In this document: positions 861 to 12,899 of the stretch, in pieces
Layout of the letters: the number at the start of each line of letters is the position of its first letter
How positions within the stretch are numbered: position 1 is the first letter of the stretch
Assembly (NCBI GenBank): GCA_965217865.1
Contig: CBDCJO010000002.1
Span: 672,001 to 736,000, forward strand
Source: Candidatus Latescibacterota bacterium
GTDB taxonomy: Bacteria; Latescibacterota; UBA2968; SICM01
Reading direction: 5' to 3'
DNA: 64,000 nucleotides
The notes under the pieces: generated by a model
Databases searched by the model: none
What the model was told of the DNA's origin: nothing
What the model saw: only the letters and a program-made list of their open reading frames with translations
Position numbers and translations under genes: made by a program

Positions 861-959
861 TGTCCCTCCTTGACTTCCCCATGGCTTTGTTTATCTTGAT
901 TGTCCTTTGAAAGCTTTCACCATCTCCGGACAACGACCCACAACAGGACGAATATAGCA

Positions 960-2339
960 GTGCAGCCCAAATTGACACAGGGAACGGTTGCCCGCACCCT
1001 GGTGGTCCTCTCGGTTCCGATGCTCGGCGGCATTTTTTCAGCCGTCTCTTTCAACCTCGCCGACACCTACTTCGTCTCCCGGCTGGGCACCAGAGAACTT
1101 GCGGCCATGAGCTTCACCTTCCCCGTGGTCATGGTCCTTATGGGGATCGCCTGGGGATTGGGCACCGGGACCACCTCCGTGGTCGCACGATCGATCGGAC
1201 GCGGTGACCAATCGACCCTTCGAAGATTATCTTCGGACAGCCTAACCCTCTCCTTCGGGGTCGTGTTCTTCTTCGCTGGGATCGGGATGCTTACCATCTC
1301 ACCTCTGTTCACCCTCCTGGGGGCCTCCCCCGATATCTTGCCTCTTATCCGGGATTACATGATGATCTGGTATCCGGGGATCGTATTCCTGGTGATACCT
1401 ATGGTGGCCAATGCCTCGATTCGCGCCACCGGAGATACCAAATTCCCTGCGCTTATCATGATCGCTGCCACCGGGACCAACTTCATACTCGACCCGTTGT
1501 TCATCTTCGGGTGGTTCGGGTTTCCACGGATGGAGCTCAAAGGCGCTGCCGTGGCGACGGTTATCGCCCGCGGCGGAACGATGGTCGCCTCGTTGTTGAT
1601 CCTTCACTTTCGGGACCGGATGCTGGACTTTTCGCCCCCGGATCTGAAAGCCGTCTGGCGTTCGTGGAAAACGATTGCCCACATCGCCGTGCCGGCTTCC
1701 GCGACCAATATCATGACCCCCCTCGCAGTCGGGGCGATCACGCGTATGGTTGCGGGATACGGTCCCGAAGCCGTGGCGGCCTGGGGGGCGGGTTCCCGCA
1801 TCACGATGTTTACGTTGGTTCCGGTGTTCGCGCTCTGTTCCGGGCTGGTTCCGTTTATCGGGCAGAACTGGGGGGCGGAGCGATTCGATCGGGTTGCCCT
1901 GGGAAGGAAATACGGCTACGTGTTCGCGGCCTTCTGGGGTGTCTTGTCCCTGGTGGTTTTGCACCTGGCGGCAGAACCGATTGCACGGCTTTTCAGCCAC
2001 GAAGCGGAGGTGGTTCGCGAGATCGTGCGCTACCTGTGGATTATGCCGATCGGTTATGCCGCACTGGGTATTCTGAGCGTAATCGAAGAAACCTTGAACG
2101 CCATCGGTAAACCCGTGATCGCGTCTGTGCAGACGCTGGTGTATACGTTCGGGTTCTACCTTCCCCTCGGAGCCCTGGGATCGAACCTGCACGCGTTGAC
2201 CGGATTGCTTTCAGGGTTGGCCGCTGCGGATCTACTGGGAGGGTTGGTGGGAATGGTGCTCGTTCGCTGGATTTGTCTTAAGGGTGAGCGGATTTGTCGG
2301 ATCCGGAATGCCGAATCATCCACAATCCCTGCTGGCTGA
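960..2339 (+). CDS. MATE family efflux transporter
   Basis: Two-repeat hydrophobic protein with N-L-A-D-T-Y-F-V-S-R-L-G, RATGDTKFP, NFILDPLFIFG and FIGQNWGA motifs. Probable GTG start at 960 (ORF track starts at 900). Confidence 0.93.
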   Translation: MQPKLTQGTVARTLVVLSVPMLGGIFSAVSFNLADTYFVSRLGTRELAAMSFTFPVVMVLMGIAWGLGTGTTSVVARSIGRGDQSTLRRLSSDSLTLSFGVVFFFAGIGMLTISPLFTLLGASPDILPLIRDYMMIWYPGIVFLVIPMVANASIRATGDTKFPALIMIAATGTNFILDPLFIFGWFGFPRMELKGAAVATVIARGGTMVASLLILHFRDRMLDFSPPDLKAVWRSWKTIAHIAVPASATNIMTPLAVGAITRMVAGYGPEAVAAWGAGSRITMFTLVPVFALCSGLVPFIGQNWGAERFDRVALGRKYGYVFAAFWGVLSLVVLHLAAEPIARLFSHEAEVVREIVRYLWIMPIGYAALGILSVIEETLNAIGKPVIASVQTLVYTFGFYLPLGALGSNLHALTGLLSGLAAADLLGGLVGMVLVRWICLKGERICRIRNAESSTIPAG

Positions 2340-2399
2340 GGTCCGTTGGGGACAGGGTGAAAATTGCATTATGCATCGTCAATCGACGATCTTCCGTCT

Positions 2400-2510
2400 C
2401 ACGACTGACGTTCTTTCAATATTCAATATTCGATCTTCAATTTCTCCTGACTTCCGGTCCCTGTCTTTTCTATTCCTGCCACTGCCCCCTGACCTCCGAC
2501 TACCGACTCT
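2400..2510. repeat. Degenerate heptamer repeat tract related to 600-860
   Basis: Shares ttcaatattcgatcttcaat, ttcctgccactgc and ctgacctccgac blocks with the tract upstream of the MATE gene. Confidence 0.7.
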
Positions 2511-3378
2511 AATACATCTCCTTCGCATTTTTCGGCAATCGCCTGACGTGCTTCAGGTGATTCGTCACCCGAAAGTCATCCCCCTCAGGATATTCAAATC
2601 CATAAACATCCGCAACGTGTTTGGCAACCGTTCGAAAGAGGTCTCCCATTGTAAACAGGGATTCCCATATGCTTTCGAAATTCGAGTCGGAATAGGTATT
2701 TTCCAGCTTCGTCCAGAGAGACGGCTCGATATCAATCTTGATATATTTTCCCTCCTTGCCGGGCGATTTTTCGAATCCGGTTCTGATCCCGAAATACCAT
2801 CCCATCATCTTCATGAGGGAGGGTCTGATCCACAAGTCTATCATGGACTTCGCATATGTCAGCTCTTCCCTCCAGATCCCCTTTGCCGCATAGGGACAGA
2901 CCCACCAGAACTCATTACAGCAATCATCGAATGCCTTGGCAGTCGGTTCCTTTTGCAGGTAGTCCCTGTCGCTCGCCGGCGATATCTCGCCGATAATATT
3001 GTCTTTATCGACAAGAACAACAGTAAGGGAGTGTTTAATCGCATCCCGGATGGAATCCAATGGTGCAAAACCAATATCGATCCGGTTTCCATCCATAAAC
3101 TGCATAAGATATCCGTAATGTCCGTCATTTTTGGGTGGCGGATCTTCCATGTCCTCGGGCGTCTGGATAATCATAAGTTCACCGAATTGTTTTAAAAAAT
3201 CCCGGTCCCTCACATAGGGATCCACACAATTCACGAAGCACGCGATATCATAATCCTGGAAAAAATCCCTCTTTACGTTCGGGTTGGCACGGGACCCGAT
3301 CATGACCGCCACCCGGATGTTATCATCCCCAGTAACGAAATTCAAAATCAGATCCATCATCTCTTTTTCGCTTCTCAT
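2509..3378 (-). CDS. aadK: Aminoglycoside 6-adenylyltransferase (ANT(6)/AadK family)
   Basis: MRSEKEMMDLIL...IRVAVMIGSRANPN..DFFQDYDI, YLMQFMDGNRID and CCNEFWWVCPYAAKGIWREE are characteristic streptomycin adenylyltransferase motifs. Confidence 0.9.
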   Translation of the reverse strand: MRSEKEMMDLILNFVTGDDNIRVAVMIGSRANPNVKRDFFQDYDIACFVNCVDPYVRDRDFLKQFGELMIIQTPEDMEDPPPKNDGHYGYLMQFMDGNRIDIGFAPLDSIRDAIKHSLTVVLVDKDNIIGEISPASDRDYLQKEPTAKAFDDCCNEFWWVCPYAAKGIWREELTYAKSMIDLWIRPSLMKMMGWYFGIRTGFEKSPGKEGKYIKIDIEPSLWTKLENTYSDSNFESIWESLFTMGDLFRTVAKHVADVYGFEYPEGDDFRVTNHLKHVRRLPKNAKEMY

Positions 3379-3429
3379 CCCGTTCATCCATAAAATATTG
3401 GAATTAGCTGGAATCAATACACCTCCGGG

Positions 3430-4236
3430 CTACACCGTCCGCCTTGCCAGCATGTATCCGAACATCGCCGTCTCCGGATATCGGCCGCCCGCGTATTCCA
3501 GCAGCGTGCGCCTCAAATCGGCTTCGAAGCCCTCCGCCCGGTCCCCCAGAACCCGCTTCGATACCCCTGAAGTCGAATACAGGTACCCGACGAAATCGTC
3601 CAGCGTCCATACGTGCGGCGTGGGAAACTCGTACGAGGCGACATCTTCGAAACCCGCCGATTGCAGGACCTCCTCAAAATCCGGATCCTTCTGAGCGCTC
3701 GGAATGTTCGTTACAACGCGTGGCTCTCTGCCGGTCCACCTGCGGACCACCTCAGACGCCAGGGACTGCCATTTCACCTGGCCCCTTCCATAGTTGACGT
3801 ACCACAAGATGGCCAGGCCGCCCCCCGGCTGCAGCCACTCCAGACCACGCCGTGCGATCAGATCCTGATCCAGCCGATGGAAAGCTTCTCCGATCGTGAT
3901 CAGCTCGAACGCGCCCGGCGGCGCCTCCAGGTCTTCCGCCCGGGTGACCATCCAGGTCAGATTCGTGGCCCCGCTTGTCACGGCCTTCTCCCGGCCGACC
4001 TGGATCATCTCCGGCTCCGGATCGATTGCCCAGACCTCCCGGAAGAAGGGCGCCATGGCAATCGCCACCCGTCCCGGTCCGCATCCGAGATCCAGCAGCC
4101 TGCCATTTCCGGTAACCCCAGCCCGGTTCCGCAGATCGTCAATGAGCGACTCCGGGTACGGCAGTCGATACCGGGCGTAATATTCCGCCGTGCCGGCAAA
4201 GGCGTCAACTGGGAAATTCGGGATCCTTGATGTCAT
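3430..4236 (-). CDS. Class I SAM-dependent methyltransferase
   Basis: F..TAEYYARYR.PYP, LLDLGCGPG, AIDPEPEM and GEAFH motifs. Confidence 0.9.
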   Translation of the reverse strand: MTSRIPNFPVDAFAGTAEYYARYRLPYPESLIDDLRNRAGVTGNGRLLDLGCGPGRVAIAMAPFFREVWAIDPEPEMIQVGREKAVTSGATNLTWMVTRAEDLEAPPGAFELITIGEAFHRLDQDLIARRGLEWLQPGGGLAILWYVNYGRGQVKWQSLASEVVRRWTGREPRVVTNIPSAQKDPDFEEVLQSAGFEDVASYEFPTPHVWTLDDFVGYLYSTSGVSKRVLGDRAEGFEADLRRTLLEYAGGRYPETAMFGYMLARRTV

Positions 4237-5423: not shown

Positions 5424-5689
5424 ACTGGCATCCCTCCCTGTGGGGGTGACGTGACCTCCTTTGACACCCTAAGATGGGGATGCCGGGCCATGTCACCATC
5501 ACGCAAGAGAAATGCGGGAAAGTTCTACCTATTCGCCTGGATACGGGGAATGACCCCATACCGGGTAAAAAACGGCTATTGTATTCAGCAGAGGACCCGA
5601 CATGGCGGGCTCTTGCATATATGATGGTGACAAGGGTAAGATACTACAATGGATATGCGCTGCCAAGGGTAAAATAATATATAATTCCC

Positions 5690-6184
5690 TTAAGATTCTT
5701 GGTTATCTTTCAAACCAGGAGCGGAGTGTGGAGGAGCTGGCGATTCTGCTCGAATTGAAGGAGCCGACGGTGTCCCACCATCTGAACCGGCTGAAGGAGC
5801 TGGGTCTGGTCCGGATGCGTGCGGACGGGAACACGCATTTCTACAGGTTGGATGGCGGGGCTTTGAGAAGTATGAACCGGGAGGTCTTCACGCCCGAGAA
5901 GATGGCGTCTCTGGTCGATGATCGGGGAGCTGAAACCTGGGAGGAGAAGGTGCTCGGGAGCTTCGTCGAAGGGAAGCATCTGAAGCAGATTCCTGCGAGC
6001 CGGAAAAAGCGGGGGGTTATTCTCAAGTGGCTGGTGGGCAAGTTTGAGGAAGGGGTCGAGTATCCCGAGCGGGAGGTGAATGAGAGGCTCAAACAGTAAT
6101 CATCCGGATTGTGCGACGCTGAGACGGGAGTTTATTGCGGAGAGGTTGATGGAGAGGGAGAAGGGGATGTACAGGAGAGCGTAA
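5690..6184 (+). pseudogene. ArsR-family HTH + DUF2087 regulator, 5'-truncated and frameshifted
   Basis: LKILG..ERSVEELA..L.LKEPTVSHHL..LK, then LKQIPASRKKR..IL..Y.EREVNE.L. One extra A (tat>taat at ~6098) breaks ...LKQYHPDCATLRREFI...YRRA*. Confidence 0.85.
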
Positions 6185-6433
6185 GTTGGGGGAGGTCGAA
6201 AGAGGAAACCTAAAAAATGGATTCGTGCCTGGGTTCGCAGGTGTCGTAGTTATACGGCATTGGCAAGTCACCGGACCTCTAAACCCCAGTCAGGAAACCG
6301 TTCAAGGCGGGCAGAAAATCAAACAAATTTCTACACACCATAAGGAATGGGAAGGATTGGCGATTCGATCCGATGTATGTTATCTTTTTAAAAGTGACTA
6401 AAGTTGGGGAGATTTCATGAGGCGCACCGGGAG

Positions 6434-6740
6434 ATGATCGAAGACATTCGACGGAAAGTTGCAGAAAATCGATTTGAGTTTTCACAACACGCTGTTGATG
6501 CCAGTATTTTACGTCATATTCTCAGTCACGGAGATTCGAGAGGCTGTTGCAACGGGTGAAGTGATAGAAGATTTCCCACAAGATAAATATGTTCCAAGTT
6601 GTCTGATTTTGGGGAGCACACAATCAGGTCGTCCACTCCATATTCAATGTACACATCCAAGCCGAGATCCGATCAAAGTGATTACCGTTTACGAACCGGA
6701 TCCGGGCTTGTGGATTGATTTTCGAGTCAGGAGCGAGTGA
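6434..6740 (+). pseudogene. DUF4258 putative toxin, +1 frameshift near 6520
   Basis: MIEDIRRKVAENRFEFSQHAVD in one frame joins EIREAVATGEVIEDFPQDKY.PSCLILG...RPLHI...VITVYEPDP..W in the next. Confidence 0.8.
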
Positions 6741-6970
6741 TGAAATGTGATATTTGTGGCGGTCCAATGGTAGAGCAGGAAGTAACATATCGAATCGAAC
6801 TGGACGAGAAACTTATTGTTGTGGAGAATGTTCCAGCGAAAGTCTGCGTTCAGTGTGGCGAGAGGTTGTATTCTGCGATGACCGTGGAACGACTTCAGCA
6901 GACAGTGTGGGAAAAGAAGACTCCTTCGAAGGTTCTGGAGACGCCGGTTTTCGACTTTTCAGAAGCCTGA
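6737..6970 (+). CDS. YgiT-type zinc finger protein (MqsA-like antitoxin partner)
   Basis: CDICGG...IVVENVPAKVCVQCGERLY; overlaps the DUF4258 stop codon (GTGA). Confidence 0.88.
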   Translation: MMKCDICGGPMVEQEVTYRIELDEKLIVVENVPAKVCVQCGERLYSAMTVERLQQTVWEKKTPSKVLETPVFDFSEA

Positions 6971-7220
6971 AAATGTTGGGATGGAAATAGTCACGCTTTG
7001 AGCATTGCCGGCCTTTTATCTGTGCGGATTTAAAATCCAGAGACATTGACCTGCTGATGTATCAAATATTAATTAAGCGATATAAAAGCAATTGGATATT
7101 TTCAGAATGTCTATGCCCTTGCTTTGTCGTCTCAGCAAAGCAAGGGGGGTGATTGCAGGGCCTGCACCATAGCGCCTTCCAATTCAGCGCGCGTACGCTG
7201 AAGAAGATGACCGCTCCCCT

Positions 7221-8471
7221 TCAGCTCTCCGGCACGTATGGCGATTTCCAAAGTTGATGAATATCATCGATGCCCAGCTTGATCATAGCGATCCGCTCTA
7301 TTCCCAGCCCGAAAGCAAACCCGCTGACCCTATTTACATCGTAACCCGCCTGGCGTAACATTTCTTCTTTCAGGAACCCGCATCCGCCAAGTTCAATCCA
7401 TTTTTCATTCCGTCTGATATCGAATTCAATACCGGCATCGACGAATTTGAAATCGTGATTGCGCCAACGGATCTCGACTTCTCCGAACACCGCAATAAGT
7501 GCTTGTCGGACGGTTGATTTCAGGGCCCGAAGATCAGCGGTTTGGTCGATGCAAATCCCATCGACTTGATGGAAGACTTTGGAATGACGTCGATCTTCCT
7601 GATCCGGTCGAAAAACTCTTCCGGCCGCGAGCAGACGCACGGGTGGTTTCCGCCCCTTTATCGCCTGAAATGTCGTGTGGGTCGTATGGGTCCGGAGAAT
7701 TTCATTGTCGCTTACGTGATAAGCCATTTCGGTGACGGCTATATCCTCCTCCACCGATCTATTTACGATTTCCTCACCGCCGATGATTTCATACGTAGAC
7801 AGGGCGGTCCGGATCTGTTCCCAGATCGTTCTGACCGGATGTCCTTCGATCTCCATCGGTTTTGGCCGATTCAGCAGCTCCCCCACAACTTTCTCGCTGA
7901 AATGTTCATCAGGCGAATGATCCTTCAGGGATTCGCTGACCATTTCGATCATCCTTTCTTTTAATCTCTTTCTGGAGTCGTGCAGCCGCTTTTTGACGGT
8001 GGTCACGGGCATCTCCAGAAAATCGCTGATTTCTTTTTGAGAGTATCCATCGATGTAGTACATGGCTGTCACGGTCCTTTCGTGTTCTGCGAGGGTCCGA
8101 AGGGCCTGGAGCACTTTTTCCTTCATTTCTTTCGCTTCCATTACTTCATCGGGCCGAGGCTCAGATGAGGTTATCTCAGTCGTGTCTTCAAGCGAAATTG
8201 TTGGCATTGGCCTGTCTCGTGTTAACCGGTCGCAATGCTTGAAGACTATCTTTCGGAACCATCCCGGGAAAGCAGCGGGATTTTGAAGCTTCGAAAGTTT
8301 CAAGAAGGCTTCGATGAATGCCTCCTGTGCGGCGTCTTCGGCTAGCTGAAAGTCGTTGAGGAGCGAGTAGCAATAGCCCACGGCCATATCCTGGAAGCGT
8401 CGAACGATCGTTCCATAGGCGTTCAGGTCGCCGGCCCTGGTACGAAGGATTAAAGATTGGAGTTCTTCCAC
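7221..8471 (-). CDS. ECF sigma-70 factor fused to a phenylalanyl-tRNA synthetase alpha-like catalytic domain
   Basis: N-half: sigma region 2 (LAEDAAQEAFI..FPGWFRKIV) and region 4 (YYIDGYSQKEISDFLEMPVTTVKKRLHDSRKRLK). C-half: class II aaRS motifs HP, LRTHT, GRVFR.D..D..HS.VFHQVDG, FKF, WIELGGCG, GFAFGLGIERIAM..GIDDI. GTG start at 8471 after RBS gagga. Confidence 0.9.
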   Translation of the reverse strand: MEELQSLILRTRAGDLNAYGTIVRRFQDMAVGYCYSLLNDFQLAEDAAQEAFIEAFLKLSKLQNPAAFPGWFRKIVFKHCDRLTRDRPMPTISLEDTTEITSSEPRPDEVMEAKEMKEKVLQALRTLAEHERTVTAMYYIDGYSQKEISDFLEMPVTTVKKRLHDSRKRLKERMIEMVSESLKDHSPDEHFSEKVVGELLNRPKPMEIEGHPVRTIWEQIRTALSTYEIIGGEEIVNRSVEEDIAVTEMAYHVSDNEILRTHTTHTTFQAIKGRKPPVRLLAAGRVFRPDQEDRRHSKVFHQVDGICIDQTADLRALKSTVRQALIAVFGEVEIRWRNHDFKFVDAGIEFDIRRNEKWIELGGCGFLKEEMLRQAGYDVNRVSGFAFGLGIERIAMIKLGIDDIHQLWKSPYVPES

Positions 8472-8506
8472 TTTTCCTCGTTTCTGAGAAGGCCTTCTAT
8501 AAGTAA

Positions 8507-8533
8507 AGACCCGATTCCTCTTGAGAAGGTTAC
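8507..8533 (-). promoter_or_regulatory. Putative ECF-type promoter (GTAACC-N16-GGTCT) upstream of the sigma-PheRS gene
   Basis: Minus strand reads gtaacc ttctcaagaggaatcg ggtct, about 35 bp before the start codon. This fits the AAC(-35)/GTC(-10) ECF pattern. Confidence 0.55.
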
Positions 8534-8609
8534 TGAAGTCCTGCAAGAACTTCAATACTATTCATGAAATCCAGCTGCGATTTCCTGTGGCCACATTTAG
8601 CCTCTAGAA

Positions 8610-9522: not shown

Positions 9523-10299
9523 GTGCGGAAACGACCAACCAACTTCAATACCGAGTTGGCAAGGAAGCAATGGGACTATGCGGCTGAAGCGTTCGCCGAA
9601 TTGCAGGCATCAGGAAATGACTACTACCGAACGGGTTTCTTTGGTCCGGCGCAAATCGACCTGTGCGGCGATGTGTCGGGTTTGGCTGTTCTCGACATAG
9701 GATGCGGGGCCGGGTACTTTTCGCGTGAGCTGTCGAAACGAGGAGCAGTCGTAACGGCGATCGATCTGTCAGGTGAGATGATCAGGTTCGCCCAAAGCCA
9801 GTCCACAGACAATATTAGATATCAGGTTCTCGACGCAGCGGACATTGCGGGGTCGTTCGCGCCGGAATACTTTGATCTGGTTACTGCTTGTGTTTCCCTT
9901 CAGGACATGCCGGATCCATCAGCCGTGATGCGGAGCGTTCACACGGTATTGAAAAGTGGATCCAGATTCGTTTTTTGTAATACCCATCCGTGTACCGACC
10001 CACCATATCGTAAATGGGCTAAGGATGAAGAAGGGAGGAAAACAGCTCTGGAGATCGCTAAGTACTTTGATCGTGGACCGATCGAATTCGAATGGAAAAG
10101 GCCTCAGCAAAAGTATGGTTGGATCTCTACCGGTGTACATGCACCACTGTCGGACTGGATCAAGTGGACTACGGCTGCAGGATTTATGATCACACAGATC
10201 GAAGAGCCTATGCCTAATGTGGAAGCCGTATCACGGTGGCCGGAACTCGAAGACGCTCGGATTGTTCCTTACTTTATTATATTCGACGTTACAAAATAA
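9523..10299 (+). CDS. Class I SAM-dependent methyltransferase
   Basis: VLDIGCGAGYFSR, AIDLSGEMI, FDLV, SLQDMPD and THPC; RBS aaggag. Confidence 0.9.
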   Translation: MRKRPTNFNTELARKQWDYAAEAFAELQASGNDYYRTGFFGPAQIDLCGDVSGLAVLDIGCGAGYFSRELSKRGAVVTAIDLSGEMIRFAQSQSTDNIRYQVLDAADIAGSFAPEYFDLVTACVSLQDMPDPSAVMRSVHTVLKSGSRFVFCNTHPCTDPPYRKWAKDEEGRKTALEIAKYFDRGPIEFEWKRPQQKYGWISTGVHAPLSDWIKWTTAAGFMITQIEEPMPNVEAVSRWPELEDARIVPYFIIFDVTK

Positions 10300-10323
10300 C
10301 AACGATGAGGCTTCGGCCGCGGT

Positions 10324-10899
10324 ATGGCTCAGGAATTTACTTTACCGGTTGAAACGAAACGATTAATCTTGCGGGATTTTGTCAAAAGGGATTGGGAACC
10401 CGTATTTGAGTTATATCGACTTCCAGAGACTTCCCATTTTGAAAGTTGGGATCCGATTGATGATAGAAAAAGGATAAAGGATCAAATTGTCCAAACCTGG
10501 ATAAGTAATCAGAGCAAGGTTCCCCGAACAGATTTTACCTTGGCTGTGGATCTTAAAGGGAAGGACCGTTTTATCGGCGTATGTGGTGTTGAAATTGATA
10601 CTGATACATCAGCCGGATCGGGAATTGGTGAGGTAGGATTTCGGTTTTTTCCGGATATTTGGGGGCAGGGTTATGCAACAGAAGCACTTAAGGGATTGAT
10701 AAGCTTTTCATTCGACGAATTAGGGTTGCATCGCATTTGGGCAGGTTGTGTAAAAGAGAATGTCGCTTCGGCCCGGGTTTTGGAAAAGGCTGGAATGCGA
10801 CTGGAAGGATGCACACGAAAAAGTTACATGATTGACGGAAGTTGGCACGATTCCTTACTTTACGGAATTCTCAGAACAGATGATGTTGGAGAAAACTGA
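10324..10899 (+). CDS. GNAT N-acetyltransferase (RimJ/RimL family)
   Basis: ETKRLILRDF, EVGF, WGQGYATEA, LGLHRI and NVASARVLEKAGMRLEG. Confidence 0.92.
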   Translation: MAQEFTLPVETKRLILRDFVKRDWEPVFELYRLPETSHFESWDPIDDRKRIKDQIVQTWISNQSKVPRTDFTLAVDLKGKDRFIGVCGVEIDTDTSAGSGIGEVGFRFFPDIWGQGYATEALKGLISFSFDELGLHRIWAGCVKENVASARVLEKAGMRLEGCTRKSYMIDGSWHDSLLYGILRTDDVGEN

Positions 10900-11010
10900 A
10901 ATTCGGCCGTCGAAGATTCACGGTTTGGGAGTCTTTGCTGCCAAGGAGATCACCGGGGGTGAAGCAATCCACAAAATTGATGACTCACGTGTAGTAGACG
11001 ACCAACATCG
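10880..11010 (+). pseudogene. SET-domain protein N-terminal fragment
   Basis: EIRPSKIHGLGVFAAKEI..GE.I is the bacterial SET N-terminal motif; similarity ends after ~43 aa. Confidence 0.7.
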
Positions 11011-11126
11011 ACGCGCTTCAAGGAAATTGAGGAAACTCCCTACAAGCCCGACCTCCTGCAATCGTGGCATCCCTCATGAGGCGGCCCGTCCCAGGGCCGC
11101 CTTTTAATGTCCGACCAGAATTCGAC

Positions 11127-11414
11127 ATGGAAACCATCACCGGAGATCACTTGATTGCAGAGTGGAAGAGGGAAGAGTGCCAACCCTTTCTTGGTTGGGA
11201 CTTTTCCTACCTCGAAGGCCGGTGTAAATTTCAAACTCCATCCTGGTCCTATGATAAAGTAGCTAGAGGTCTTATCGTGGATTCTCACGCCTTGTTGGAT
11301 CTCGGGACAGGGGGTGGTGAAAGGCTCGCCGAATTCAAGGATATCCTACCGGCCCGGACGACGGCAACGGAGGGGCATTTACCCAATGTCCGGCTGGCAC
11401 AAGAAAGGCTATAG
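11127..11414 (+). pseudogene. SAM-dependent methyltransferase, 3'-truncated
   Basis: W..EE..PF.GWDFSYL.GR, LLDLGTGGGE.L and ATEG..PNV.LA..RL; the frame ends at the junction with the opposite-strand gene. Confidence 0.8.
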
Positions 11415-12469
11415 GGGCTGAATCCACAGCTAGACGTCAATATGATGTGCTCCAGGGACACGTATTCCGTGACGCTCTTGAGCCTGCGAAACATCGCATC
11501 GAGTGTCTCCAGTGTGTAGTCGCTGGAATCGATAATTCCGAATAATAGTCGGGCTTCAGGTGGAAAATGTCTGAACGCCTCCAAATCCTCCGCTGTATCG
11601 TTGATCGCTAGACTGAACTGGTCACACCTCAGTCTCTCTATGATCCTTTGAAGAAAGCCGGCTTCTCGCCACGGAATACTTTTGTGATCAATCGCTCTGC
11701 AAATATGTACGGCTGAGGCCGCTGATCGCACGTGAGGGAAGAGTTGATTCAAGGAACTTGTGTAGCATTCGATCTCTCTTTCCAGGTTGAGGAGTTGGCG
11801 AAGTCGGGGGTCGAGCAACATCGTGATGCGATCGTCGTCGAACTGTATCACTTCGACTCCCAGGCGCTCGCAGTCTTGAATGATGGGCTTATAGTGTTTT
11901 ACGATGTCATCCAGATACGCTTCCTGGGTAGGATAGGCATCTCGTGAAAAGACCGGATGCCAGCTTGTGCGCATAATCTCGTAAGGTGACGGCAGGGTCA
12001 GCTTGACGGGTTTTGAAGCGTGCTTTTTCATCACCCGGGTTTCTCGTTCAAAGACGCTGTTGGTAAGGTCGCCATTCTTCCGCGCTAATTTGTCTACGAT
12101 AACTGCACCATATTTGAGCCACGCGGGGTTCAACCCGTGGGCACTGGGTCGCTCCCAAACCTGGTAAGCCTGGCCCACGTGGTGGTCCCAGTAGCGTCCG
12201 TCGTCCAGCAGGGTGGGGACGTTGATGCCGGTCGGCATGTATCCATCGAAGCAATCGTAGAATACCGAGAAATAGCCCGATCGCTGGATCTCTCCGTCGT
12301 TGACGATATCCAGCAGGAGGCTTTCCTGCTTCAGGATTATCTCCCTGGCCCCCTCCTCCAGGACGGCCAAGGCCGTCGGGTTCCGATACACGTTGTCGTA
12401 GTCTCGGAACTGGTTCAGGACCTGAACGCTCCGGGGAAGGCTGCCCAGCACACTGGTTTGCAGAGTCAT
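11410..12469 (-). pseudogene. Cobalamin-independent methionine synthase II (MetE C-domain)-like protein, last helix lost
   Basis: TSVLGSLPR, DGEIQR, KLTLPSP, GVEVIQFDD, VHICR and SSCGF. After CGFSPY the ORF reads into the antisense of the methyltransferase fragment. Confidence 0.75.
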
Positions 12470-12899
12470 TGGTATATTGCCCACAGATATTGGGGCTGAG
12501 AAAGCGGATACAATATAAAGAAAGGTCGTGAACAAGGATACCCTTAAGGATACGCTCACGACCTTCTCTGAACTTTATGCCGAAGCAGTTGCTGAGGAGA
12601 AATAGGAGTTGGTGAAACTCCACATCAACTGGATTGTTCAGGCGCTGACCTTCTAACGTCAGCGTCTCTTTTTTTTTTCAGAACTATTTCCGCTCTCGAG
12701 AGGTTTTAATAGAGCCTCTTGATATTTTCTTCAGGCGTAGGATGTGATTTTTATCACACTTAAGACTGACTAACAATGCAATTTGTTGGCAATATTTACT
12801 GAAAAAATTGGTCAACCAATGGCTGGCAAACAGAATCATTGGGGAGGTCTTTATTCCATTTCTTGTAACCTTTGAGGGTTACGTGCAAAATTAATTTCC

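What the first reader, a model, noticed from the sequence alone, without database searches (positions are those of the whole stretch)
7221..8533. ECF sigma factor fused to a PheRS-like catalytic domain: candidate GCN2-like bacterial sensor-sigma
Seen: one uninterrupted ORF of about 416 aa. Complete sigma regions 2 and 4 are joined by a short linker (EMVSESLKDHSPDEHFSEKV) to a class II aminoacyl-tRNA synthetase core. Motif 2 (GRVFRPD..D..HS.VFHQVDG) and motif 3 (GFAFGLGIERIAM) keep their ATP-binding arginines, and the two aromatics of the Phe pocket survive as FKF (canonical FPF). THTS is changed to THTT, HQxEG to HQVDG, and the HPxR..DTF loop is gone. There is no tRNA-binding coiled coil or anticodon-binding domain, no pheT and no anti-sigma gene next to it. 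The gene is intact although many neighbours are broken. Established: many ECFs are controlled by fused C-terminal extensions, and aaRS cores have been repurposed (HisRS-like domain of GCN2, HisZ, EpmA, AsnA). Inference: the aaRS-like domain senses an aromatic amino acid, adenylate/Ap4A or uncharged tRNA and switches sigma activity directly. I know of no described ECF group with this extension, but could not search.
Basis: partly seen in the sequence, partly recalled or inferred. Interest (0 to 1): 0.92.

Follow-up and report, generated by a model that had tools for sequence, protein, structure and literature searches.

The report
One-gene sigma circuit with synthetase relic
This gene fuses an alternative (ECF) sigma factor to a remodelled copy of the phenylalanyl-tRNA synthetase catalytic core; it likely switches on only its own promoter and likely also makes the synthetase-like half as a separate protein, which would form a self-contained one-gene sensing loop.

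Summary
The fusion is real: window 7221-8471 (-), 416 aa, sigma regions 2 and 4 plus a PheS-like core. I hold 262 distinct proteins with both domains, from several phyla, and the core is under purifying selection (dN/dS 0.22). The fused cores form one clade. They keep the ATP-site residues (121 of 139) but have lost the HPxR..DTF loop (0 of 139) and a pocket Gln (0 of 139); both pocket aromatics survive in only 59 of 139. So it is not a tRNA ligase, and Phe or tRNA sensing is not supported family-wide. Three additions. (1) A conserved promoter (GTAACCTT-12-TGGGTCTTT) shares the ECF264 -35 box, and its best genomic matches precede these sigma genes themselves. (2) The sigma core belongs to an ECF264-related clade with swappable extensions (ankyrin, AtpD-like, SecA, BFN, DUF1835). 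(3) An internal Shine-Dalgarno plus start codon at Met177 is conserved at codon level (AGG in 14 of 14), which implies a free 240-aa PheS-like protein. Best model, about 40%: a one-gene loop in which the free half restrains the sigma until an adenylate-type ligand binds. My literature searches found no description. This scan has reported the family before on other genomes.

The parts
7221..8471 (-). Coding sequence, 416 aa: ECF sigma factor fused to a PheS-like domain
   Evidence: model mean pLDDT 86.7, pTM 0.63
8244..8408 (-). Sigma region 2 (aa 22-76)
   Evidence: Pfam PF04542
7962..8120 (-). Sigma region 4 (aa 118-170)
   Evidence: Pfam PF08281
7941..7956 (-). Internal Shine-Dalgarno-like AAGGA (7956-7952), 8-nt spacer and in-frame ATG of Met177 (7943-7941)
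   Evidence: Arg173 codon is AGG in 14 of 14 loci with Arg there, against 2 of 107 at eight other Arg positions. Start codon at 177 in 14 of 14 loci. Met in 115 of 118 proteins.
7221..7943 (-). Predicted second product: free 240-aa helix module plus PheS-like domain
   Evidence: Inferred. A 240-aa protein starting at this Met is on record (P0395), probably the gene call of the truncated genomic copy.
7872..7943 (-). Helix-Pro-loop-Phe-helix module (aa 177-200), shared by the clade's other extensions
   Evidence: Phe191 in 117 of 118 family members and in 26 of 27 sigma factors with other extensions; helices in the model
7242..7895 (-). PheRS-alpha-like class II core (aa 193-410) with motif 1 helix, motif 2 Arg288/His296/Phe300, pocket FKF (341-343) and motif 3 Glu392/Arg393
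   Evidence: Foldseek rmsd 2.1 over 217 columns to PheRS alpha 4p75_D
8526..8533 (-). Predicted -35 box GTAACCTT
   Evidence: Top genome-wide hit of a matrix trained without this genome; same as the ECF264 -35; coordinates
8502..8513 (-). Predicted -10 region CGGGTCTTTACT, 12 nt after the -35 box
8487..8498 (-). Conserved short palindrome AGAAGGCCTTCT near the predicted transcript start; role unknown
   Evidence: Seen by eye in most upstream regions; no stable RNA fold, z 0.62
7207..8562 (-). Duplicated cassette: promoter plus gene and almost nothing else
   Evidence: 91.8% identical 1360-bp block at genome C2:189496-190854

Best explanation
The gene encodes an ECF sigma factor fused to a diverged PheRS-alpha catalytic core that keeps its ATP-site residues; it likely transcribes only its own promoter and likely also yields the PheRS-like half as a separate protein from an internal ribosome-binding site, so it would act as a one-gene feedback loop in which the free half holds the sigma in check until an adenylate-type ligand binds. 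Shown: the architecture, the family, purifying selection, the pattern of kept and lost residues, the conserved promoter-like element and the codon-level conservation of the internal start. Inferred: (1) the sigma recognises that element; (2) the internal start is used; (3) the free and fused extensions interact, either through the class II motif-1 dimer surface or through the shared 24-residue helix module, which fills the role of the missing anti-sigma gene; (4) the switch is a ligand with an AMP or ATP half and an amino group (an aminoacyl-adenylate, a mimic of one, or ATP plus an amino compound) rather than tRNA, and its side chain differs between members; (5) the main output is more of the PheS-like protein itself.
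For: Family: 120 of 120 best hits carry both domains, as do 115 of 120 hits of a second subfamily. All 37 fusion cores sampled form one branch, SH-aLRT 100. dN/dS is 0.22 on both domains between the two full genomic copies. ATP site: Arg288 130, Phe/Tyr300 130, Arg393 123, all three 121 of 139; Arg288, Phe300 and Arg393 are invariant in 104 of 104 subfamily B proteins. Residues recalled as amino-group contacts are kept in kind: Ser/Thr264 126 and Glu/Asp304 133 of 139. Promoter: 35 of 42 upstream regions from other genomes share the two-box motif, and its two best matches in 6.4 Mb are the two full copies of this gene. Subfamily B has a different motif, found 6 times in 5 genomes, 5 of them directly before the fusion gene, with 0 for the reversed control. 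Internal start: AGG in 14 of 14, against 10.5% of other Arg codons in the same genes and 22% of Glu-Arg-Met contexts in this genome. Subfamily B writes the purine tract with other residues (KG, QE, RE) in 7 of 7 loci, and its start column alternates Met 37 / Val 31 of 68. No conserved neighbour gene in 18 loci.
Against: No ligand, protein product, transcript or interaction was observed. The promoter matrix is trained on upstream regions of these sigma genes, so it is biased towards finding self; degenerate targets would be missed. Five sites score 21 or more against 1 and 2 in two shuffles, and one of eight further sites checked is intergenic. By predicted anti-SD pairing, position 177 ranks only 11th of all codon positions; it is first only among the five positions with a conserved start codon. 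The loci are related, so 14 of 14 overstates independence. 16 of 139 subfamily A proteins lack the motif 3 Arg and 50 lack the acidic residue at 360, so ATP binding may not be universal. The model (pTM 0.63) does not fix the domains against each other. An inhibitory role for the free half is an analogy, not a result.
Confidence: 0.4

Rival explanations
1. Payload model: the PheS-like half is an active enzyme or a sponge (for example an adenylating ligase or hydrolase for an amino acid analogue or a synthetase inhibitor). The sigma exists mainly to overproduce it from the internal start; regulation of the sigma is secondary.
For: A sigma whose only detectable target is its own mRNA needs a useful product on that mRNA. 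The ATP-site residues are kept. Two long members add further C-terminal domains, one a GNAT (P0127). Class II cores are reused as ligases (EpmA, AsnA; recalled).
Against: The pocket varies strongly between members (second aromatic 70 of 139, Pro 47 of 139, Glu349 71 of 139 against 30 of 31 canonical). No partner, carrier or substrate gene is conserved nearby. The NCBIfam PheS-related ligase SrmL model scores 122 against a cut-off of 300.
Confidence: 0.25
2. One reading: a GCN2-like sensor acting in cis, which binds phenylalanine or uncharged tRNA and switches on a wider starvation regulon.
For: This protein keeps His262, Phe341, Phe343, Val344 and Ala386. Phe258, Phe260, Val261 and Ala314 shape the pocket in T. 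thermophilus PheRS (PMC3275996). Fused extensions control ECF41 and ECF238 (PMC8999054).
Against: The N-terminal coiled coil, the anticodon domain and the HPxR..DTF loop are absent (0 of 139). The pocket Gln is absent (0 of 139). Both aromatics are present in only 59 of 139. No wider regulon stands out above shuffles at scores 17 and 19 (50 vs 38/37; 12 vs 13/8). The model does not explain the internal start.
Confidence: 0.15
3. Protein-docking model: the domain is a pseudo-alpha subunit that docks on PheT or on a protein that attacks PheRS, and so reports the state of the synthetase rather than a small molecule.
For: The motif 1 helix and an acidic residue at 345 (100 of 139; recalled as the alpha/beta metal ligand) are kept. 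Sister sigma factors carry parts of other multi-subunit machines, AtpD-like and SecA.
Against: The ATP site is better conserved than would be needed for docking. The canonical C-terminal tail is replaced by a family-specific W-x-x-P-Y end. The domain is not derived from the host lineage's PheS.
Confidence: 0.12
4. Artefact or replacement: a chance chimera or misassembly, or the organism's actual PheS, since no canonical pheS is in the assembly.
For: All 4 PF01409 matches in this genome are fusion-type; the assembly is 96% complete with 9.3% contamination.
Against: pheT is cut at its 5' end by the end of contig C2, and pheS lies directly upstream of pheT in both same-family genomes, so pheS falls in the gap. 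5 of 5 other fusion-bearing genomes have a separate pheS. 262 distinct two-domain proteins; junction bridged in another study.
Confidence: 0.02

Closest known systems
ECF264 (Casas-Pastor et al. 2021, PMC7826278, supplement): Paenibacillaceae sigma factors with a DUF1835 extension
   Same: Same -35 box GTAACCTT and a similar -10 (GGCACATT there; GG[GC][TA]CTTT here), no anti-sigma, long C-terminal extension. A DUF1835-bearing Paenibacillus sigma (L057) falls in the same SH-aLRT 99 clade as the query.
   Different: The extension is PheS-like, not DUF1835; hosts are uncultured non-Firmicutes. L057 lacks the junction SD and the shared helix module. No internal start is mentioned in the ECF264 passage I read.
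ECF41/56/294/295 (SnoaL-like), ECF42 (TPR), ECF238 (Cys-rich) sigma factors with regulatory extensions (PMC7826278, PMC8999054)
   Same: Extension replaces an anti-sigma; predicted autoregulation. The subfamily B -35 (GTCACAA) resembles the ECF41 TGTCACA.
   Different: The extension is an enzyme-derived nucleotide-binding fold, appears portable between sigma cores, and is likely also made on its own.
Bacterial phenylalanyl-tRNA synthetase alpha subunit (PF01409, TIGR00468; PDB 3PCO, 4P75)
   Same: Fold (rmsd 2.1), motifs 1 to 3, ATP-site residues.
   Different: 164 bits against the TIGR00468 cut-off of 237; no coiled coil, no HPxR..DTF loop, no pocket Gln, no pheT partner gene; long separate branch.
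Repurposed class II synthetase cores: GCN2 HisRS-like domain, HisZ, EpmA, AsnA (recalled) and SrmL (NF051887)
   Same: A synthetase core used outside translation.
   Different: None is recalled as fused to a sigma factor; GCN2 keeps a tRNA-binding role, which this domain seems unable to have; the SrmL model is far under its cut-off.

Membership tests
ECF sigma factor (sigma-70 group IV) | Regions 2 and 4 only, short linker | tested here: met
   PF04542 and PF08281 over their cut-offs; TIGR02937 85.7 vs 42.9
ECF sigma factor (sigma-70 group IV) | Directs RNA polymerase to a specific promoter | not testable with these tools
   Only a conserved upstream two-box motif was found
ECF264 | Sigma core clusters with ECF264 | tested here: inconclusive
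   Same starred clade as a DUF1835-bearing Paenibacillus sigma, which I take as ECF264-like, on a long branch in a quick tree; the group HMMs were not available
ECF264 | Promoter GTAACCTT / GGCACATT | tested here: met
   -35 identical; -10 similar but not identical
ECF264 | About 350-aa extension with DUF1835 | tested here: not met
   Extension is tRNA-synt_2d, about 240 aa
PheS (phenylalanine--tRNA ligase alpha) | Score over the TIGR00468 cut-off | tested here: not met
   164.4 vs 237.45
PheS (phenylalanine--tRNA ligase alpha) | Class II motif 2 and motif 3 ATP residues | tested here: met
   Arg288, Phe300, Arg393 present; 121 of 139 in the family
PheS (phenylalanine--tRNA ligase alpha) | N-terminal tRNA-binding coiled coil, NFDALN..HPxR..DTF loop, pocket Gln, adjacent pheT | tested here: not met
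PheS (phenylalanine--tRNA ligase alpha) | Activates Phe and charges tRNA | not testable with these tools
   Needs biochemistry
SrmL PheS-related ligase (NF051887) | Score over cut-off | tested here: not met
   121.9 vs 300
GCN2-like uncharged-tRNA sensor | Synthetase-like domain that binds uncharged tRNA | not testable with these tools
   Sequence argues against it: tRNA-contacting elements are absent

The most novel reading that the evidence does not exclude
A clade of ECF264-related sigma factors works as a bacterial integrated-decoy system. One self-promoter, one internal ribosome-binding site and one short docking module accept interchangeable copies of essential machine parts (PheS here; AtpD-like and SecA in sister proteins). 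Each copy is bait for whatever attacks the real machine, here an aminoacyl-adenylate mimic or another synthetase inhibitor. Binding would release the sigma, which amplifies its own mRNA and floods the cell with the free decoy, so that sensor, anti-sigma and antidote come from one gene.
Probability: 0.2. Interest if true: 0.92.

Novelty: new variant of a known kind. Interest (0 to 1): 0.72.

Why it matters
It extends ECF regulation by fused extensions to a synthetase-derived nucleotide-binding fold and adds a new use for an aminoacyl-tRNA synthetase core outside translation. If the internal start is used, one reading frame encodes both a sigma factor and its likely antagonist or effector. The cassette is 1.36 kb, has its own predicted promoter and no required neighbours, so it can be tested directly in a laboratory host. 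The shared promoter and junction make the whole clade of swappable extensions testable with one reporter.

Tried and rejected
Complex prediction of the sigma part (1-173) with the extension (177-416): no verdict, score 0.00 against a mark of 0.32; not used as evidence. A homodimer of the extension was not predicted. Sequencing runs: no RNA holder listed, so expression and use of the internal start could not be examined. Conserved neighbours: none in 18 loci, apart from duplicate contigs, antisense frames of the gene and scattered pairwise hits; part of that output was cut. Wider regulon: not above shuffles at scores 17 and 19; 7 of the 8 next-best non-sigma sites lie inside ORFs, as does the one extra subfamily B site. 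The 5' palindrome and the internal SD region fold no better than shuffles. No terminator-like site on the gene's strand. An out-of-frame TGA at the junction (ATGA) is present here but not in the loci with ATG-CTC, ATG-CTG or ATG-TTG, so a conserved frameshift or stop-start overlap was rejected. The fusion as the genome's working PheS was rejected. Tyr or other specific ligands cannot be assigned: Ala386 is Gly in 15 of 139 subfamily A and 99 of 104 subfamily B proteins, which widens the pocket in E. coli PheRS (PMC3275996), but this protein has Ala. The first locus search drew its patterns from the sigma part and returned only 2 full fusions of 80. L195 did not align at the junction and was dropped from the codon count. 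Literature searches with no relevant paper.

Full report
Observation. The ORF runs 8471 to 7221 on the minus strand and gives 416 aa from a GTG behind a GAGG. Pfam finds sigma region 2 (22-76), region 4 (118-170) and tRNA-synt_2d (193-410, E 2.9e-52). NCBIfam scores it under the cut-offs for pheS (164 vs 237) and SrmL (122 vs 300). The AlphaFold model (pLDDT 86.7, pTM 0.63) matches PheRS alpha, rmsd 2.1 over 217 columns to 4p75_D. A contig from another study covers 7254-8179 across the junction.

Family. All 120 best hits of 2597 carry both domains. An HMMER search with the core alone gave 26 sigma-bearing proteins among the best 150 cluster representatives; the other fusion-type hits were shorter pieces that I did not check against contig ends, so a stand-alone form is neither shown nor excluded. 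A distant member in genome G025 led to a second subfamily, B, with 115 of 120 hits two-domain. In all I hold 262 distinct two-domain proteins including the query. Source names include Latescibacterota, Planctomycetota, Hydrogenedentota, Gemmatimonadota, Myxococcota, Proteobacteria and Vicinamibacterales, all metagenome-assembled. The ESM Atlas has at least three such clusters of 57 to 152 members with automatic names only. Distribution is patchy: within the host phylum, 1 of 167 other genomes has a subfamily A match far above the PheS background, and 7 of 168 have subfamily B.

Own genome. It holds four copies: this one, a full paralogue at C2:189.5-190.8 kb (about 91% identical), one cut inside region 4 and one fragment. 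The duplicated block is window 7207-8562, that is promoter plus gene, and dN/dS is 0.23 for the sigma part and 0.22 for the core. No canonical pheS is in the assembly. pheT is cut at its 5' end by the contig end, both same-family genomes have pheS directly before pheT, and 5 of 5 other fusion-bearing genomes have a separate pheS, 4 over the cut-off and one split over two contigs. So the absence is best read as a gap.

The core. I compared 139 subfamily A domains (the query, 117 of the 120 hits, and 21 of 26 sigma-bearing representatives) with 31 canonical PheS (31 of 53 candidates; 22 failed my trimming rule). Kept: Arg288 130, Phe/Tyr300 130, His296 104, Gln302 119, Glu/Asp392 137, Arg393 123, Ser/Thr264 126, Glu/Asp304 133. 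Lost or loosened: HPxR..DTF loop 0, Gln267 0 (30 of 31 canonical), His/Gln262 68 with an acid in 57, first aromatic 114, second 70, both 59. In subfamily B (34 B1 and 70 B2 of 110 length-filtered proteins) Arg288, Phe300, Gln302 and Arg393 are invariant, position 262 is mostly acidic, the second aromatic is Leu or Met, and Ala386 is mostly Gly. The roles of Phe258, Phe260, Val261 and Ala314 come from PMC3275996 (section 5 and passages read); the roles of the ATP and amino-group residues and of the lost loop are recalled. In a quick tree of 80 rows all 37 fusion cores form one long branch (SH-aLRT 100) inside bacterial-type PheS, away from the host family's own PheS; the sister group is unresolved.

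The sigma core. Of 25 relatives scanned (chosen from the top 37 loci), 2 carry the PheS-like core, 11 ankyrin repeats (one also AtpD-like), 2 AtpD-like, 1 SecA, 1 BFN, 1 TPR, 1 DUF1835 and 6 nothing at E 1e-8. In a quick tree of 69 sigma cores, 20 PheS-type and 23 other-extension proteins share one SH-aLRT 99 clade, poorly resolved inside; subfamily B and five others lie outside it. The extension has therefore moved between sigma cores, or the cores have exchanged extensions.

Promoter. 35 of 42 upstream regions from other genomes share GTAACCTT-12/13-TGGGTCTTT. With this genome left out of training, the two best of 50 hits are the two full copies (27.0 and 25.3), and two clade paralogues rank 6th and 8th. 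Counts at scores 17, 19 and 21 are 50, 12 and 5, against 38/37, 13/8 and 1/2 in two shuffles. The supplement of PMC7826278 gives ECF264 GTAACCTT and GGCACATT, a DUF1835 extension and no anti-sigma. Subfamily B1 uses GTCACAA-13-GTGTCC, found 6 times in 5 genomes, 5 of them before the fusion gene. The detectable regulon is thus the gene itself, with the caveat that the matrix is biased towards self.

Internal start. This lead came from earlier notes of the scan and was tested here. At the junction the DNA reads GAA AGG ATG nnn nnn ATG. Arg173 is AGG in 14 of 14 loci with Arg (15 loci; one has Gly GGG; one further locus dropped as misaligned; two duplicate contigs left out), against 2 of 107 at eight other Arg positions and 10.5% of 607 other Arg codons; in sister genes with other extensions it is 15 of 19. 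In this genome Glu-Arg-Met uses AGG in 22% of 125 cases. Codon 177 is a start codon in 14 of 14 loci, with mean anti-SD pairing of -5.5 kcal/mol against -2.3 to -3.8 for the four other positions with a conserved start codon; ten positions without a conserved start pair more strongly. Subfamily B builds the purine tract from other residues in 7 of 7 loci, and in B2 the start column is Met 37 / Val 31, as expected for ATG/GTG. The first 24 residues after the start form a helix module whose Phe is shared by 26 of 27 sister proteins with other extensions.

Mechanism. A sigma with no anti-sigma gene, whose only clear target is its own mRNA, and whose mRNA likely makes the extension separately, is most simply a closed loop. 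None of the binding or regulatory steps was observed.

Literature. PMC7826278: passages of the main text and term searches of its one held supplement, which was cut when stored; of six occurrences of 'tRNA synthetase' I saw two, both about neighbouring genes, and PF01409, phenylalan-, aminoacyl, ankyrin and SecA did not occur. The cut part and Table S2 could bear on novelty. PMC8999054: passages only, no 'synthetase' in the text. Searches (listings only) gave no paper on this architecture; most subscription journals are not covered. The scan itself has at least eight earlier notes on this family in other genomes; these are unchecked and are not counted as support.

Verdict. Real, conserved and apparently undescribed: a new variant of extension-controlled ECF sigma factors, related to but not a member of ECF264, and not a PheS. 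Interest 0.72.

Noticed in passing
genome C2:5770614-5773438 (L005): pheT is cut at its 5' end by the contig end and no canonical pheS is assembled.
   Followed up: yes
genome C2:557100-558035 and 272029-272370: Two truncated copies of the gene in IS-rich surroundings; the first keeps the internal SD, Met177 and the whole 240-aa extension but has lost region 2 and most of region 4.
   Followed up: partly
genome C2:4199059-4199745 and 4225018-4225665: Two more sigma genes of the same clade with the same promoter motif; one seems to end shortly after the helix module, the other is a region 2 fragment running into a glyoxalase-like sequence (by eye).
   Followed up: partly
window 8487-8498 and upstream regions: A short palindrome (GAAGG..CCTTC, with compensating variants and 0-3 central bases) follows the -10 box in many clade members whatever their extension.
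   Followed up: partly
L024:670-3240, L044:5001-6617, L045:5001-6980, L052:1830-3359, L027:2767-4935: Same sigma clade fused to SecA, AtpD-like (with or without ankyrins) and BFN domains.
   Followed up: partly
L129:5422-8851: Two clade sigma genes in tandem, a PheS-type followed by a 641-aa protein with an extension of no Pfam family.
   Followed up: no
window 6459-6970: DUF4258 / YgiT-type zinc finger pair, a likely toxin-antitoxin module. Runs X7 and X9 lack one base at 6519, so the DUF4258 frame may differ between strains.
   Followed up: no
window 7202 (run X9): A contig that matches 6400-7202 goes on into unrelated sequence, a weak hint that the cassette is absent from this site in a related strain.
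   Followed up: no
window 900-4236 and 9523-12559: Neighbourhood of MATE transporter, streptomycin adenylyltransferase-like gene (PF04439), methyltransferases, GNAT and cobalamin-independent methionine synthase-like gene, among transposase-like ORFs.
   Followed up: no
window 5602-6099: ArsR-DUF2087 gene that stops after 40 of 69 DUF2087 model positions, probably truncated.
   Followed up: no
L102-L105: Two families of the host's class carry long (about 520-560 aa) archaeal-type PheS and short PheT, while the host family has the bacterial type.
   Followed up: no
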